Part shown: in pieces, positions 59,508 to 64,000 of the stretch
How the letters are laid out: every line of letters begins with the position of its first letter
Numbering within the stretch: the first letter of the stretch is position 1
Assembly: GCA_000002435.2 (NCBI GenBank)
Contig: CM018792.1
Source of the DNA: Giardia intestinalis
Taxonomy: Eukaryota
DNA: 64,000 nt
Reading direction: 5' to 3' (one strand)
Position numbers and translations under genes: made by a program
The notes under the pieces: model-generated
What the model saw: only the letters and a program-made list of their open reading frames with translations
The model's database searches: none
Told to the model about the DNA's origin: nothing

Positions 59508-62500
59508 GCGTCCCAGTGCCATCCTGCGCTCTGCGTCTGCCAGGCACGGCACGGCAGGTCTCGGCCAGTGCACCAAGCGTGTTGATGCGTATTGGTCAGC
59601 GGACTCTGCTACTGGAGCCTCCGGTCTGGGCGAGCACCGGCTCTCATGGCTGCCGATACGCAGGTGGATGCCCGGTCCTCAGCAACGCACCCTGCGTGTC
59701 CGCGGCTCCGCGAGTGACCGACAGTGCTGTGCAGAGGCCAGAACTGCGGACCCCGTGTGCTAAACATCGCCCCTCTGCAGCTGTGGGATTGGCTGGTTCT
59801 GACAAGTTATAGACAAAACAGGGCCCTGTCCATTGCATAACCACTCGCAGCACCTCCAGGTATAGCGTTGGCGGTGGTTCTGTGCTACCTCGCCGAGTTT
59901 CGTGGGTCGGAGGTCTTCAAGGACGTCCAGGCCCTTGCCCAGATCAACGAGCCCCGGGACGAGACCCTCGGGCTTGTGGCACGGAGAGACATGCCGGCTT
60001 CCTCGAAGGATCGACAGCAAGGACTCGGGCTAGTAAAGATTATCCTTCCCGTCCCCGTCCGCGGTTCATCATGTACCTGTACGTTCAGCGGGCCTTCCGA
60101 CTCAGAAGTGAAGCCGGTGAACTCTGTGGCGAAGGGCCCAGTACCGGGAGTGGCTGGCACCATGAGCGGCTGGCTGGCATGCAACTTAACCACGGACGCG
60201 GTGGAGATGGGCCAGGCCATCTGTTAGGAACAAGCGCCACGGGCTTCTTCTTCAGCTCGTGCGTCTCACTGATCCTGTAGGTGTCCAGCACGTAGGTGGC
60301 GAGAGAGTCGAGCAGTGCTCCAGAGAAGCCTCGAAGGGGTCATCATGGCAGACAAAAAGCTGCAGAAAGGCCAAGTCTCTGCATGCAGACGTAGTCCGAT
60401 TCACGAAGGACCTCGATGCTCGGCGAGGCACGCCGTCTGCAAAGCGCCCTGCCGTGCTTGCCAAGGCCGAGGAAGCAGAGGCTCTCAGCAAAGAGCTTAC
60501 TGTGGCCGAAGCAGGATCAGGACGCTGATTCCAGAGGCACAGCAGCCACACAAGCCATCCGGCACCGGTAGAGGCAGCAAGAAGCGCATTGCTCACGTCC
60601 TGTGCTACAACCCTCCGCACGAGTGGACCTGCAGGCCAGCCACCGCATCTCAGCAAGAGATCGGCCAGTGCCGCGAGCTAGCCTCTCCACGGCTTCCAGG
60701 CTCTATAGAACGCGCTGTCAATAGCGAGCTACGAGACATAGACAGTATGATCAAGCAATATGAAAAGTATCCTACCTTAGAAGATACCGCCTCCAACCGT
60801 GTATATCACGAACCGGCAAGTGGTCTAATATCAGGTGAGTCCGATAGACGGCATCTCCTAGATGCTCCTAGTGATGAGGACATCTCTGCGATCCTAGCAA
60901 TGTGACTGGTGGCGCACAATCCGCGACTACTCATTGCGGCGTGGTAAGAGACTAGTGTCTGCCCCCAAACTAGGACTACCAGACTGAGAAGACGCTAATC
61001 TAGCCATGATCACTCTCACTCTGAAGTCCTTAAGCCAGTGCTTGCTGACGCGTCGAATCGTTGCATCTGCATCCTCCACCTACTCTGGGCAAATCAGCGG
61101 CCAAGCTTCAGGAGGGCGTGCCCGAAGCCTGGACACGGCATGACTCCAGAAGAGCACGACGAGAGACAGACCGGCCTGGTCGAGCCGGGACGCTTCATGG
61201 CTACCGCGAGGCCGCGATGTAGGCCTGCAGTTCGTTCCACAACGACCTGCAGAAGGCTCTACGTGCCTGGCGCCAGTATCCGCAAGGCTCTGGCCTGCGT
61301 TATCGCTGTAGGCGGATCTTAGCGCCCTCCGAGAGCCACGATCTAAGCGACAAGCCGGATCTGCTCTCGAGAAGCGGCGGCGAGAGGAAGGCAGAGTGTC
61401 GTAAGCGTGCAATACGCCCTAACGGCTGCCAATGCCCGCGGCAAGCGCAAGCGCTTACAGAGCTCTTCTTCGCCAGGTCTAGGGTGGATCCATCTCCAGG
61501 CCGGAGTTTGCAAGGCAGCCAGCGCGTAGTTGCCGAGTTGTTTGGAGCAGTGAGACCTTACCCCTTTATTGCTATGCTCATGCGCACGACGGGCTGATCG
61601 CTGGGTCCACCGAGCCCTTCACTACACTTTCCGGTTTGCTAACAGAGCGTCTTGGCACTTCCTTCTAGCGGCTGTTCTTCCAGTAGCACAGACGCCATCA
61701 CCAAACAAGCTCCTCCTCAAAGTCAGCCCTGCCCGCCTACGTGCCACGCAGCTAAATTAAGAGGTGGGGGAGGCGAGTCGCGAGATCCGTCTCACTGTGG
61801 TGATAGCGCACACGGCAGAACGCAGTAACATGCTCTTCCTCCACTGACTTAGTTTGCTGTGGGCGCTTTAGCAGCAATCCGGCGGCTTCAGAGGCCTCCG
61901 TGCTGACTGGAACTGGGCGATGATGCGCACGGGAAAGCACTGGTCGGGCGGGCAATGCCGGCGACGCCTTAGTGGACCCGCACTGATTGCTGTCCACTCA
62001 TAGAGTTTGTGGAAATGGACTCGGTACAGCAAGTGTTAGCTTTGTAGTGAAAAGCGGAGAATGTACCTGCACAGCAACATGGCTAACAGAGTCCCACGCA
62101 TGCTACAGAGAGCGCTAGCAACGGTCCCGGCAGGCCCCCGTAGTCATCGAGGGCCATCCAGGCCTTGCTGTGGAGGAGACGCTGATCAGGGCAGTGAGGA
62201 GAACTCATGGGGCTTGCGGACCACAAACTGAAAGCTATCGCGGGACTCTCCCACCCCGGCGTTACCGCACCACCAGCTGACCAGGAGCAAAAGCCGCATA
62301 CGCATCATCGTGGCCCGCTACCACGGGGGTCTCTAGAGACTTATCACAGCCTGCAGGGGCCTCAAGCCTACCGGTACCCAGGACCAGGGACGGCCAGCCC
62401 GTCGCTCTTGCAGACTGGGGACTCTGCGAGCTGCCCTGCACAATGGAGGCGCCCCTACAAGAACGCCAGCCTACATGGCCCCAAGACCAGCGCCGCCTCG

Positions 62501-64000
62501 ACGTCTGGCCCTCGGGCCGTCACGTATGCGCGTGCTACCATGGAATTGCCGAGTCTTCGCGCGATTGGAGGCCAGAGAGCACGAAGCATTCTTTGTCAGT
62601 GGGTGGATGTCCGACTTACGTGCCGTGCAGACGACATTCTACACTTCGTTTTCGAGAAGATGTTCGTCCTGGACCCGACAGAGCGATCCACAGCCGGAGG
62701 GCTCCCTGGGTTGTTCTGAATGCTTAGTGCCTCTACAGCGGCAGATTGCTCTTTTCATCAAGACCGGCTTGCCAGCTGCTGTCCGAGTAGGTCCCTGTCC
62801 GAGCCGCCACGCCGGGCCTCTGCTCACCCGCGCCTGGGGCCAGGGCCAGGGCTCGCAAGTAGGAGGCCTCCAGCTCTGCGGGAGAAGAGCCCTGTGCTTC
62901 CTCCGAGGCGACCACGGAGCAGCGCAGAGCCCGGGGCTGGCGACGCGGGTGCCCTGTGGACGCCTGGCTCGGGCAGAAGCGGACCGAGCTCCTGGCTCAC
63001 AAGGCAGCGGCGGTTGGGAGTCCACCACAAGCAGCTGCGCGGTGCCCGACGCCTCACCATGAGATGGGACACACGAGCAGGCTGCCGAGCGAAACGACCT
63101 CGTGGTGAACAACAACTCGTACATGGACCGTGCCCTGACCGCTCTGGTGCTTCAGATAACACCCCTCGGAGAGCTGCGGCCAGACCAGCCTCTTCAACTG
63201 AACGACTCATGACTCCATGTGCGCTCTGCGGCACGGATGAGTGCAGACCACACCAGCCCAGCACACTGCACAGTGATGCGCCTGAGATTGTATGACCACC
63301 TGGCGCCACAGGAGTGCACTGCGGTCTATGAGCAGAATGGTAGGCCGGGCAGGAGGCAGGCTAGGGTCGGGCATCTTCCTCTGCGCCAACCAGGGGTCGA
63401 CATGGGGGTCCACGGGCACATGCTGCGGTCCAGGAGGACGCATGGCGAGTGCATCCCGACAGCAGGATCGATGGTGCACTTCATGAGGAGGCACATGAGG
63501 ACTCCGAGTAGACATGCAGAGGCCATGGCGTATGTGGTCTTCGTCCTTGAGCACTGTTCCCAAGGCTAGGCCGCCGCAACTGACAGCTGGGCCCTGGAGG
63601 AGCGCTGCTTGCCAGGCGCCAGGCAGCTGGCCCCCACGGAGGTTAGCGAAAGAAGGGAGAAGCCCCTGGAAGATGCTGCGAGGAGCCTGCAGTGGCTCCC
63701 AAGCGAGATGAACATAAAGTCCTTCTTCCCTTCAGAACTAGATGGCGTCTAACCTCCGGGTTCTGGAGTCTGGATTTGGAGTGGTGAGCGAGCAAGAGAC
63801 CTCCTCACCAGGGCAGGAGGGCCTCATATGACGAGCGGTTTACTCGGCAGAAGACATGATCAGCGCTGGTGATATGTAGTATCGGCGCTTCGTCTACCGG
63901 CCTTAGAGCGTTTACTCTGAGAGGAGGGCAATTATCTCATGGCGCCTCCATAGCTTGGCCATGTCAAGGGCAGTTTCGTCCATATTATCTCTAATATTCT
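59508..64000. other. GC-rich (about 60-65%) stretch with no credible gene, running to the window end.
   Basis: Many overlapping ORFs of 60-200 aa appear in all six frames, as expected from GC-rich non-coding sequence. They translate to P/R/A/G-rich products with no domain signatures and show no consistent codon periodicity. Confidence 0.5.

What the first reader, a model, noticed from the sequence alone, without database searches (positions are those of the whole stretch)
59508..64000. More than 4.4 kb of 60-65% GC sequence with no credible gene downstream of the VSP locus
Every reading frame stays open for 60-200 codons, yet the translations are compositional noise (P/R/A/G-rich) with no shared frame preference. 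I could not find the conserved rRNA 5' or 3' motifs of a subtelomeric rDNA unit, nor TAGGG telomere repeats. It is therefore probably not rDNA or telomere. It could still be a GC-rich subtelomeric or VSP-associated domain or a degenerate repeat family. A second GC-rich block lies between the VSP and the HCMP at 53392-54158.
Basis: seen in the sequence. Interest (0 to 1): 0.5.

Follow-up and report, generated by a model that had tools for sequence, protein, structure and literature searches.

The report
Decayed gene relics beside Giardia VSP
The 4.4 kb GC-rich, gene-free stretch is dead DNA in a variable, surface-antigen-associated part of a Giardia intestinalis WB chromosome: broken copies of two genes duplicated from elsewhere on the same chromosome plus an old rearranged spacer, an ordinary example of a known kind of region.

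Summary
The window is Giardia intestinalis WB (assemblage AI), from the 2.76-Mb chromosome. Positions 59,493-63,911 are 60% GC against 48% in the gene-dense part of the window. They show no codon-usage or period-3 signal and no Pfam, Rfam, telomere or tandem-repeat hit.

Two corrections apply. The last 89 nt of the window are the 3' end of a real NEK kinase gene on the minus strand. And not all translations are noise.
- 60,312-60,905 is a 5'-truncated, multiply frameshifted copy of the last ~240 codons of the coiled-coil gene GL50803_00112787, which is intact elsewhere on the same chromosome.
- ~62,130-62,740 is a shattered NEK kinase-domain relic.

Both relics are colinear, at 68-83% nucleotide identity, with the parental locus. 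The core of the tract is therefore a decayed segmental duplication. Segment 62.8-63.86 kb matches the GC-rich spacer next to the orthologous NEK and TPR genes in assemblage E, but inverted.

The decayed copies are GC-enriched relative to their better-preserved paralogues (AT→GC 189 vs GC→AT 94). The high GC thus looks like drift of unconstrained DNA, not a functional signature.

Gene-poor, GC-elevated, pseudogene-rich VSP flanks are already described for this genome. Interest is low. About 1.9 kb remains unassigned.

The parts
57378..59492 (+). Context: VSP pseudogene. It has a signal peptide and a TM/CRSKA tail, but carries in-frame stops and is split over three frames. An AGTAAAC poly(A) signal lies just after its stop codon.
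   Evidence: tblastn of VSP1 hits in frames 1, 2 and 3, and the translations show stops. The Pfam VSP tail scores 28.7 bits, below the cut-off. Direct repeats with the VSP1 tail.
59493..60311 (.). Unassigned GC-rich segment A (61% GC). No homologue was found. It ends at the left breakpoint of the duplication.
   Evidence: No hit by blastn, tblastx or nhmmer against the sequence in hand, nor in Pfam or PDB. Homology to L023 starts abruptly at 60,312.
60312..60921 (+). 5'-truncated, frameshifted pseudogene fragment. It corresponds to the last ~240 codons plus 16 nt of 3' flank of the coiled-coil protein gene GL50803_00112787. It has at least 3 frameshifts, one in-frame stop and two deletions.
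   Evidence: phmmer E=1.5e-30 to DHA2_112787 residues 1762-1844. tblastn shows pieces in frames +3, +1, +2, +3. blastn gives 79-83% identity to L023 14,816-15,550. The frameshift-corrected translation is 74% identical to the assemblage A protein. A further 1-nt deletion at 60,716 is present in the AII lineage.
60922..61983 (.). Unassigned segment B (59% GC). It lies between the two colinear homologous blocks, in the position of L023 15,551-17,836, and is no longer alignable.
   Evidence: Flanked by colinear blastn blocks. No hits of its own. A 1-nt insertion polymorphism lies at 61,657.
61984..62740 (+). Second paralogous block. It contains a shattered NEK kinase catalytic-domain relic at ~62,130-62,740, spread over three frames with internal deletions. 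The '170-aa ORF' 62,207-62,719 is a frame mosaic of this relic.
   Evidence: blastn gives 68-74% identity to L023 17,837-18,794. tblastn of many Giardia NEKs reaches E=2e-10. Colinear pieces match a Giardia NEK HMM at positions ~55-295. The L023 copy is far better preserved: E=1e-49, and several NEKs align from residue 1 to ~204 in one frame.
62741..63911 (.). Segment C, the GC-richest part (63%). It is homologous to the GC-rich spacer flanking the orthologous NEK and TPR genes in assemblage E (P15), but inverted relative to those genes. It includes the ~310-nt element 63,553-63,864, which has an inverted copy at 56,585-56,913, and the deprecated ORF GL50803_10472 (62,720-63,295).
   Evidence: blastn gives 76% over 125 nt to L022 12,561-12,683. 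nhmmer hits: L022 12,259-12,387 and 12,480-12,679, L018 2-336, window 56,913-56,585. The P15 spacer pieces are 68% and 57% GC. No RNA-structure signal: z = -0.5 and -0.9.
63912..64000 (-). 3' end (stop codon 63,912-63,914) of NEK kinase KAE8304376.1. This is the true right-hand boundary of the gene-free tract.
   Evidence: The minus-frame translation ...NIRDNMDETALDMAKLWRRHEIIALLSE* matches the C-terminus of the NEK on L011. The WB protein is identified.
53392..54158 (.). Second GC-rich block (63% GC) between VSP1 and the HCMP. No coding signal and no relic recognised.
   Evidence: GC3 of the adjoining HCMP 3' end and VSP1 5' end rises to 0.64-0.81.

Best explanation
The tract 59,493-63,911 is non-functional, decaying DNA in a variable, VSP-associated region of the G. 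intestinalis WB 2.76-Mb chromosome. It is not a gene, rDNA, telomere or structured RNA.

Shown:
1. Its core (60.3-62.74 kb) is a diverged intrachromosomal segmental duplication. The source segment holds the 3' end of the coiled-coil gene GL50803_00112787 and a downstream NEK kinase (pseudo)gene. Both copies here are disabled by truncation, frameshifts, stops and deletions.
2. Its right part (62.8-63.86 kb) descends from the old GC-rich spacer that lies next to the same NEK and TPR genes in assemblage E. In WB it is inverted and is bounded by an inverted ~310-nt repeat.
3. No frame carries coding signal. Close relatives carry frame-breaking indels.

Inferred:
1. The duplication arose on the assemblage A lineage.
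2. The 60-66% GC is a by-product of GC-biased long-term substitution on unconstrained DNA in this compartment. The decayed copies gained GC relative to their better-preserved paralogues, with an implied equilibrium of about 67% GC. Synonymous sites of neighbouring gene ends are GC-enriched too.
3. Whether that bias comes from biased gene conversion or from regional mutation bias is unresolved.
For: - Organism and locus: exact protein matches to WB KAE8304370, KAE8304373 and KAE8304374 on a 2,761,001-bp record.
- No coding signal. No Pfam, Rfam, PDB or plasmid hit.
- Pseudogene 1. An intact parent, GL50803_00112787, lies on the same chromosome record.
- Pseudogene 2 (NEK relic).
- Five blastn blocks are colinear with the parental locus L023, E = 2e-75 to 8e-18.
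- Frame-breaking 1-nt indels separate AI from the AII-type lineage at 60,716 and 61,657. That lineage is identified as AII because its NEK is identical to DH ESU34873.1.
- The corrected pseudo-protein is closest to the assemblage A protein (74%, against 62-70% to the others) and shares A-specific residues.
- GC drift: within the HSP blocks, paralogue→window changes are W→S 189 vs S→W 94 (p=2e-8). At codon positions 1+2 of the functional parent they are 37 vs 12 (p=5e-4). Recognisable relics are 56-59% GC and unrecognisable segments 59-63%. Core four-fold-site GC is 0.44, while GC3 of gene ends abutting GC-rich blocks is 0.64-0.81.
- Assemblage E comparison.
- Current annotation (inference): protein accessions run KAE8304374 (VSP1) ... 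KAE8304376 (NEK), leaving room for only one product between them. The old model GL50803_10472 appears only under an old-release accession.
- Literature: regions around VSPs are gene-poor (PMC7000408). VSP intergenic lengths have median/mean 1,280/2,131 nt against 79/392 nt genome-wide. These regions have higher GC and hold pseudogenes and retroelement relics (bioRxiv 10.1101/2022.03.07.483299).
Against: - About 1.9 kb (59,493-60,311 and 60,922-61,983) has no identified ancestry. I could not search the full Giardia genome by DNA.
- Absence of transcription or function was not tested.
- A 110-165-nt stretch (62,960-63,140) is 76-80% identical between assemblages A and E. That is about as conserved as coding DNA, so some constraint cannot be excluded.
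- The 170-aa ORF is intact in all five sequence variants on record, though these are only ~1.5% diverged.
- Recent AI/AII substitutions polarised with the paralogue run the other way: S→W 16 vs W→S 6. The GC enrichment is therefore either a fixation bias (gene conversion) or a past episode. A simple GC-ward mutation bias is disfavoured.
- The W→S / S→W asymmetry partly restates the GC difference between copies. Its direction rests on assuming that the better-preserved copy changed less.
Confidence: 0.8

Rival explanations
1. The tract is a functional non-coding domain. It could be a long non-coding transcript, a small-RNA source, or a chromatin/boundary region involved in mutually exclusive VSP expression. 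On this view its GC richness and length are maintained by selection.
For: VSP flanks are systematically long and GC-elevated. A ~110-165-nt piece is conserved at 76-80% between assemblages A and E. The AI/AII divergence of the tract (1.38%) is lower than that of the adjacent VSP pseudogene (2.73%).
Against: - Here the tract flanks a dead VSP.
- Much of it is demonstrably wreckage of unrelated genes.
- Indels accumulate freely.
- No Rfam family, no Giardia ncRNA 3'-processing motif, no excess folding energy or covariation in the conserved piece.
- GC enrichment also affects synonymous sites of neighbouring genes, which points to a neutral regional process.
Confidence: 0.1
2. The unassigned parts (59.5-60.3 kb and 60.9-62.0 kb, and perhaps part of 62.7-63.9 kb) are remnants of a dead non-LTR retrotransposon of the GilD/GilM/GilT type, as reported between some VSP pairs.
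For: The literature reports reverse-transcriptase remnants between VSP pairs and in VSP intergenic regions. Pfam scans missed the NEK kinase relic that family-specific searches found. A negative Pfam result therefore does not exclude a decayed RT.
Against: No RVT or endonuclease domain at E<=1-10 in any of six frames or in the long ORFs. No PDB hit to reverse transcriptases. No terminal or tandem repeats. Segment B lies inside a colinear duplication whose parental counterpart is ordinary intergenic DNA.
Confidence: 0.12
3. One or more of the long ORFs is a real, lineage-specific protein-coding gene missed or wrongly retired by annotation. Candidates: the 117-aa ORF 59,874-60,227, the 186-aa ORF 60,345-60,905, the 170-aa ORF 62,207-62,719, and the 191-aa ORF 62,720-63,295 (GL50803_10472).
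For: These ORFs are called by automatic gene finders in many assemblies. The 170-aa ORF keeps its length in five variants. There is a weak positive codon score at 60.6-60.9 kb.
Against: - The codon score at 60.6-60.9 kb is explained by the inherited C-terminal codons of the parent gene.
- The 186-aa ORF is cut to 141 aa by a 1-nt deletion in AII.
- The 170-aa ORF is a frame mosaic of a kinase domain.
- No periodicity, no Pfam or PDB match.
- ORF number and length are close to the shuffle expectation.
- An exhaustive phmmer search of the one ORF tested found only self, the parent family and noise.
Confidence: 0.03
4. The tract is an assembly artefact or foreign (contaminant or horizontally acquired bacterial) DNA.
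For: GC content is unlike the rest of the window. Short-read contigs break at 62.94-63.05 kb.
Against: Independent Logan contigs match at 99.97-100%, AII-type contigs at 98.1-98.4%, and one contig spans the break (L017). The tract holds Giardia-specific gene relics. No match in 72,556 plasmids.
Confidence: 0.01

Closest known systems
Gene-poor, GC-elevated VSP-flanking regions of Giardia intestinalis WB (Xu et al. 2020, PMC7000408; Rodriguez-Walker et al. 2022 preprint, 10.1101/2022.03.07.483299)
   Same: It lies next to a VSP, a VSP pseudogene and an HCMP. The gene-free interval (4.4 kb) is far longer than the genome median (79 nt). GC is above the genome average. It contains pseudogenes. Short-read assemblies break there.
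   Different: The specific content has not, to my knowledge, been described: a duplicated 3' fragment of GL50803_00112787, a NEK kinase-domain relic, and an inverted ancestral NEK-TPR spacer. The flanking VSP is itself dead.
Non-processed (duplicative) pseudogenes arising from segmental duplication
   Same: There is homology to an intact parent on the same chromosome. The homology continues past the stop codon into flanking non-coding DNA and into the next (pseudo)gene. The copy is 5'-truncated at the duplication breakpoint and carries frameshifts, stops and deletions.
   Different: Divergence is unusually strong (17-32% at the nucleotide level). The copies are compositionally shifted towards GC relative to the parent.
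GC-biased gene conversion tracts / GC-rich subtelomeric or recombination-prone compartments (suggested for Giardia rDNA in PMC10123126; described for Cryptosporidium subtelomeres in PMC10438818)
   Same: There is a long-term excess of AT→GC over GC→AT changes in unconstrained DNA. Neighbouring synonymous sites are GC-enriched. The most recent changes are AT-biased.
   Different: The location is internal to the chromosome as far as this window shows, and no telomere or rDNA lies nearby. Gene conversion itself was not observed. The sample of recent changes is small (22 sites).
Dead non-LTR retrotransposon relics (GilD) in Giardia (Arkhipova & Morrison 2001, cited in PMC7000408)
   Same: Non-coding, degenerate, associated with VSP-containing regions.
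   Different: No reverse-transcriptase similarity was detected. The identifiable parts derive from cellular genes.

Membership tests
rDNA unit (18S-5.8S-28S plus spacers) | Match to SSU, LSU or 5.8S rRNA covariance models | tested here: not met
   Rfam at gathering score over the whole window, and at E<=5 over 47.5-64 kb, finds only a 5S rRNA at 49,394-49,528 and a tRNA. Nothing lies in 59.5-63.9 kb.
Telomere or immediate subtelomere | TAGGG repeat arrays | tested here: not met
   TAGGGTAGGG with <=1 mismatch gives 2 isolated matches against 1.8 expected by chance. No tandem arrays.
Protein-coding gene | Species-typical codon usage and 3-base periodicity in one frame | tested here: not met
   Best-frame log-likelihood ratio averages -20.5 against +10.5 in genes. 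Period-3 power has a median of 1.15 against 2.7, and no window exceeds 4.
Protein-coding gene | ORF preserved among relatives | tested here: not met
   1-nt indels at 60,716 and 61,657 separate AI from AII. The 186-aa ORF becomes 141 aa. Only the 170-aa ORF is preserved, and at just 1.4% divergence.
Duplicative (non-processed) pseudogene | Significant homology to an intact parent gene in the same genome | tested here: met
   E=1.5e-30 (phmmer) and 79-83% nucleotide identity to the GL50803_00112787/DHA2_112787 3' end. The intact WB parent KAE8304517.1 is on the same chromosome record.
Duplicative (non-processed) pseudogene | Disabling lesions (truncation, frameshifts, stops) | tested here: met
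   Only the last ~240 of 1,844 codons are present. They occupy frames +3, +1, +2, +3, with one in-frame stop and two deletions. The NEK relic is spread over three frames with deletions.
Duplicative (non-processed) pseudogene | Homology extends into flanking non-coding DNA, and there is no poly(A) tract (this distinguishes it from a retro-processed copy) | tested here: met
   The alignment runs 16 nt past the stop codon. It resumes colinearly about 1.06 kb downstream in the window, 2.3 kb in the parental locus. No A-run follows 60,905.
VSP-associated gene-poor, GC-elevated region (as described for WB) | Adjacent to a VSP or VSP pseudogene, intergenic length well above the genome norm, GC above genome average | tested here: met
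   The VSP pseudogene ends at 59,492. The gene-free span is 4,419 nt, against a genome median of 79 nt and a VSP-flank mean of 2,131 nt. GC is 0.60 against 0.48.
Non-LTR retrotransposon relic (GilM, GilT, GilD) | Reverse-transcriptase or endonuclease similarity | tested here: inconclusive
   No RVT or Exo_endo_phos hit in six-frame or ORF Pfam scans. These scans also missed the NEK relic, so sensitivity for decayed domains is poor.
Non-LTR retrotransposon relic (GilM, GilT, GilD) | Multiple dispersed copies in the genome | not testable with these tools
   No Giardia whole-genome nucleotide database could be searched.
Giardia small ncRNA gene (snoRNA/snRNA class of Hudson et al. 2012) | 12-nt 3'-end processing motif [T/A/C]C[C/A]TT[T/C]HHT[H]AA downstream of the RNA | tested here: not met
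   The pattern search gives a single match in the whole window, at 11,428. None lies in the tract (motif from PMC3510501).
Structured RNA (any) | Folding energy beyond shuffles, or compensatory changes | tested here: not met
   Only the A/E-conserved piece 62,955-63,135 was tested. z = -0.49 (+) and -0.94 (-), and the covariation term is +0.9 (unfavourable) with three sequences.

The most novel reading that the evidence does not exclude
VSP-flanking 'deserts' in Giardia become GC-rich because GC-biased gene conversion acts on dead DNA in recombination-prone, allelically variable regions. In this tract the long-term changes relative to better-preserved paralogues are 2:1 AT→GC (implied equilibrium about 67% GC). 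The most recent AI/AII changes are about 2.7:1 GC→AT. That contrast is the classic signature of a fixation bias opposing an AT-biased mutation spectrum. If it held genome-wide, parent/pseudogene pairs would give a direct molecular read-out of recombination in an organism whose sexuality is still debated.
Probability: 0.25. Interest if true: 0.5.

Novelty: new member of a known kind. Interest (0 to 1): 0.2.

Why it matters
Mostly housekeeping.
- It explains an odd-looking 4.4-kb GC-rich blank in a genome where intergenic spacers are typically under 100 nt.
- It identifies two pseudogene relics that are apparently unannotated.
- It supports the retirement of the old ORF model GL50803_10472.
- It gives a small reconstruction of how a variable VSP region grew between two conserved genes (TPR and NEK) in assemblage A: duplication from a locus elsewhere on the same chromosome, an inversion, and an inverted repeat.

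The only wider point is the compositional one. Decayed copies are GC-shifted relative to their parents. If this is general, the GC elevation of VSP regions would be a neutral by-product, possibly of biased gene conversion, and not a regulatory feature.

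Tried and rejected
- A 3,309-aa concatenation of all long ORFs as one query to the 5.8-billion-protein search returned nothing, not even the known self-matches.
- Exact look-ups of WB VSP1 (385-aa form), the HCMP and NEK P0041 were not on record, so the WB chromosome beyond 64,000 and its official gene table could not be fetched.
- P15 and another draft assembly break 300-370 nt beyond the TPR gene, so synteny could not be read straight across.
- No paper mentions GL50803_112787 or GL50803_10472.
- Arkhipova & Morrison 2001 is not held in the library.

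Tests that came back negative:
- Pfam on six-frame translations and on ten ORFs
- Rfam, permissive threshold
- PDB sequence search of four ORFs
- Plasmid blastn
- Telomere repeat
- ncRNA 3' motif
- RNA folding of the conserved piece
- tblastn of all proteins in hand against the other gene-free stretches 47.8-52.2, 53.4-54.2 and 56.3-57.4 kb
- Paralogy between the TPR genes of the two loci

Considered and rejected: rDNA, telomere, assembly artefact, bacterial contamination, a real gene.

Full report
**Identity of the window.** Exact-sequence look-ups place the window in Giardia intestinalis WB (ATCC 50803, assemblage AI), on the 2,761,001-bp chromosome record. Leucine carboxyl methyltransferase KAE8304370.1, a TPR protein KAE8304373.1 and a VSP (XP_001705644.1; current form KAE8304374.1) are all encoded here. 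From position 1 to ~47.8 kb the window is densely packed with long ORFs. From 47.8 kb on it becomes a variable region:
- a 5S rRNA
- an intact VSP at 52,154-53,356
- a high-cysteine membrane protein on the minus strand at 54,159-56,237
- a second VSP that is a pseudogene at 57,378-59,492, with stops, three frames and a CRSKA tail
- the tract in question

**Check of the observation.**
- The tract is 60% GC (0.599-0.601) against 48% in the gene-dense part. The 500-nt windows run from 0.546 to 0.662.
- A codon-usage log-likelihood scan was trained on the window's own 17 long genes. It gives a mean best-frame score of -20.5 in the tract against +10.5 in genes, with no consistent frame.
- Period-3 power is at noise level: median 1.15 against 2.7 in genes.
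- There are 25 stop-free runs of >=85 codons across all six frames, the longest 241. Dinucleotide shuffles give 17 +/- 3 runs and a longest of 186 +/- 37. The open frames are therefore mostly the arithmetic consequence of GC richness.
- Rfam finds nothing in the tract at gathering or permissive thresholds. There are no telomere repeats, no tandem or internal repeats of note, and no Pfam domain in six-frame translations or in ten individual ORFs.
- The sequence is not an artefact. Logan contigs from independent runs match it at 99.97-100%, and ENA and Logan contigs of a sister lineage match at 98.1-98.4%.

**Boundaries.** One sister-lineage contig (L011) runs past the window end. It shows that the last 89 nt of the window are the 3' end of a 680-aa NEK kinase/ankyrin gene on the minus strand, with its stop codon at 63,912-63,914. 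The WB protein is KAE8304376.1. The gene-free tract is thus 59,493-63,911, or 4,419 nt. The protein accessions KAE8304374 (VSP1) and KAE8304376 (NEK) leave room for only one product between them, presumably the HCMP. By inference, the current annotation calls no protein in the tract. The 191-aa ORF 62,720-63,295 is the old model GL50803_10472, found only under an old-release accession.

**First relic.** The only part with a hint of coding signal was 60.45-60.9 kb.
- An exhaustive phmmer search of the stop-to-stop ORF 60,273-60,902 against 1.84 billion representatives found four hits: itself, a 63-aa fragment, a low-complexity protein, and the C-terminus (residues 1762-1844) of a 1,844-aa protein at E=1.5e-30.
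- That protein is DHA2_112787, a coiled-coil protein of isolate DH. Its WB counterpart GL50803_00112787 (KAE8304517.1) is intact at 1,844 aa and lies on the same chromosome record. Assemblage B and G. muris orthologues exist.
- tblastn shows that residues ~1606-1844 align to window 60,312-60,902, passing through frames +3, +1, +2 and +3.
- A codon-by-codon reconstruction shows one in-frame stop, two deletions and several frameshifts.
- The sister lineage carries a further 1-nt deletion at 60,716, which truncates the '186-aa ORF' to 141 aa.

This is a 5'-truncated pseudogene fragment.

**The core is a segmental duplication.** I fetched the DH locus of the functional gene (L023, gene at 10,001-15,535) and compared it with the window. 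Five colinear blastn blocks appear:

| Window | L023 | Identity |
|---|---|---|
| 60,312-60,646 | 14,816-15,155 | 79% |
| 60,670-60,921 | 15,300-15,550 (runs 15-16 nt past the stop codon) | 83% |
| 61,984-62,129 | 17,837-17,984 | 73% |
| 62,145-62,358 | 18,070-18,277 | 74% |
| 62,351-62,737 | 18,402-18,794 | 68% |

- The downstream blocks are themselves a gene relic. Many Giardia NEK kinases hit window 62,186-62,740 by tblastn, with E down to 2e-10, in three different frames.
- A profile built from 60 Giardia NEKs recovers colinear pieces of kinase-domain positions ~55-295. The '170-aa ORF' 62,207-62,719 is a frame mosaic of this relic.
- The parental-locus copy is far better preserved. Its best match reaches E=1e-49, and several NEKs align from residue 1 to ~204 in one frame.
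- The parental locus is also followed by a gene-poor, GC-elevated stretch (0.52-0.62) and a VSP.
- The frameshift-corrected pseudo-protein is 74% identical to the assemblage A protein, 70% to assemblage B and 62-66% to two others.
- It shares A-specific residues (for example LPGSIERAV against PPSSIERAV) while keeping some ancestral ones. I infer a duplication on the A lineage followed by free decay.

**The right-hand part.**
- Segment 62,741-63,911 (63% GC) matches the ends of two assemblage E (P15) contigs.
- One is the 736 nt downstream of the orthologous NEK, which is 68% GC. That NEK is 83% identical at the nucleotide level over 1.84 kb to the AII (L011) copy of the window's NEK.
- The other is the 373 nt upstream of the orthologous TPR gene, which is 57% GC.
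- The matches are L022 12,259-12,387 and 12,480-12,679 to window 62,814-62,942 and 62,913-63,136, and L018 2-336 to window 63,555-63,851.
- They are colinear, but on the strand opposite to that expected from the flanking genes. I read this as the old NEK-TPR spacer, already GC-rich before assemblages A and E split, lying inverted in WB.
- If so, the ~15 kb between TPR and this spacer (5S rRNA, VSP1, HCMP, VSP pseudogene, duplicated segment) would have been added in the A lineage or lost in E. The P15 contigs do not overlap, so this adjacency is an inference.
- The ~310-nt piece 63,553-63,864 has an inverted copy at 56,585-56,913 (E=1e-10) and a partial relative upstream of the P15 NEK. It is the only repeated element found.
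- The best-conserved stretch (62,955-63,135, 76-80% between A and E) shows no excess folding energy and no covariation support. No Giardia ncRNA 3'-processing motif occurs in the tract.

**Why it is GC-rich.**
- Within the well-aligned blocks, differences from the better-preserved paralogue to the window copy are AT→GC 189 against GC→AT 94 (p=2e-8).
- At codon positions 1 and 2 of the functional parent, changes can be assigned mostly to the unconstrained copy. There the counts are 37 against 12 (p=5e-4).
- Per-site rates imply an equilibrium near 67% GC, which matches the richest parts of the tract.
- The coiled-coil gene relic is 56% GC and the NEK block 59%. The unrecognisable segments are 59-63%.
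- Four-fold degenerate sites of the window's core genes are only 44% GC. Third positions of the HCMP 3' end and the VSP1 5' end, which abut GC-rich blocks, reach 0.64-0.81.
- This points to a regional, neutral GC-enriching process, not to selection on the tract.
- In tension with a plain mutation bias, the 22 recent AI/AII substitutions that could be polarised with the paralogue are GC→AT 16 against AT→GC 6.
- That contrast is what biased gene conversion would produce. The sample is small, and a past episode of enrichment is an alternative. I leave the cause open.

**Comparison with what is known.**
- Xu et al. [quoted passage not shown]
- Rodriguez-Walker et al. (bioRxiv 10.1101/2022.03.07.483299) give median/mean intergenic lengths of 79/392 nt genome-wide against 1,280/2,131 nt next to VSPs.
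- The same preprint notes the higher GC of VSP-containing regions. It reports pseudogenes, retrotransposon relics and dubious hypothetical ORFs in such intervals.
- The tract is a long but typical example.
- What is added here is its anatomy (two apparently unannotated pseudogene relics from a same-chromosome duplication, and an inverted ancestral spacer) and the compositional asymmetry.

**Limits.**
- About 1.9 kb (59,493-60,311 and 60,922-61,983) has no assigned origin.
- I could not search the whole Giardia genome at the nucleotide level, obtain Gil retroelement sequences, or look at expression data.
- Pfam scans missed the kinase relic that family-specific comparison found, so the negative result for reverse transcriptase is weak.

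**Verdict.** The cautious interpretation, a VSP-associated GC-rich domain that is neither rDNA nor telomere, is right. The thing itself is decaying duplicated DNA of a kind already described. Interest is low.

Noticed in passing
window 49,394-49,528 (-): A 5S rRNA gene (Rfam 76 bits) is 135 nt long against the 120-nt model. A 17-nt insert sits where the model has 2 nt, in the hairpin loop after model position ~39. It coincides with a perfect 15-nt x 2.3 tandem repeat (TTAATTCGGAACGAG, 49,466-49,499). The gene lies alone in a 4.4-kb gene-free stretch and may be a variant or a pseudogene.
   Followed up: partly
window 47,773-52,153: A second ~4.4-kb stretch without coding signal (52% GC) starts right after the last conserved gene (TPR). 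Draft assemblies of P15 and of another isolate both break 300-370 nt beyond that gene. No relic was recognised with the proteins in hand.
   Followed up: partly
window 56,585-56,913 vs 63,553-63,864; L018 2-336; L022 9,776-9,891: A ~310-nt element is present as a diverged inverted pair in WB. One copy lies 350-680 nt upstream of, and sense to, the HCMP start. Relatives lie just upstream of the TPR and NEK start codons in assemblage E. It may be a small dispersed repeat or a duplicated upstream region, and it could have mediated the inversion of the intervening 6.6 kb.
   Followed up: partly
window 57,378-59,492 (+): The VSP upstream of the tract is a pseudogene. The signal peptide and TM tail are recognisable, but the tail reads CRSKA where CRGKA is expected. 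There are in-frame stops and at least three frame changes. AI and AII copies differ by 2.7% (5% around 58.7-59.2 kb), about twice the divergence of the tract itself.
   Followed up: yes
NEK kinase beyond window 63,912 (L011 7,075-9,117; P0041 vs P0173): The AI (WB) and AII (DH) NEK proteins are only 92% identical, with 47 of 54 differences in residues 21-351, the kinase half. The adjacent non-coding tract is 98.6% identical. This suggests a mosaic or gene-conversion history with NEK paralogues.
   Followed up: no
window 62,941-63,045: Nearly all short-read (Logan) contigs carrying the tract end within this ~100-nt interval at slightly different positions. This is the 64-66% GC peak and is probably a coverage drop-out. 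One run (L017) spans it.
   Followed up: partly
window 62,837-62,852: A GGGCCA hexamer microsatellite (2.7 copies) gains one unit (6 nt) in the AII-type lineage.
   Followed up: yes
window 59,493-63,911 (sites within the blocks homologous to L023): Recent AI/AII substitutions, polarised with the paralogue, are GC→AT 16 vs AT→GC 6. This is opposite to the long-term AT→GC excess (189 vs 94). The sample is small and the discrepancy is unexplained; it is compatible with biased gene conversion.
   Followed up: partly
L023 17,933-18,532 (DH locus downstream of DHA2_112787): The parental locus carries an uncalled NEK kinase-domain sequence. By tblastn, several NEKs align from residue 1 to ~204 in a single frame, and the best match reaches E=1e-49. 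It is either a recent pseudogene or an unannotated short gene.
   Followed up: partly
window 32,040-32,112 (-): A tRNA gene (Rfam 69 bits) sits between protein-coding genes in the conserved part of the window.
   Followed up: no
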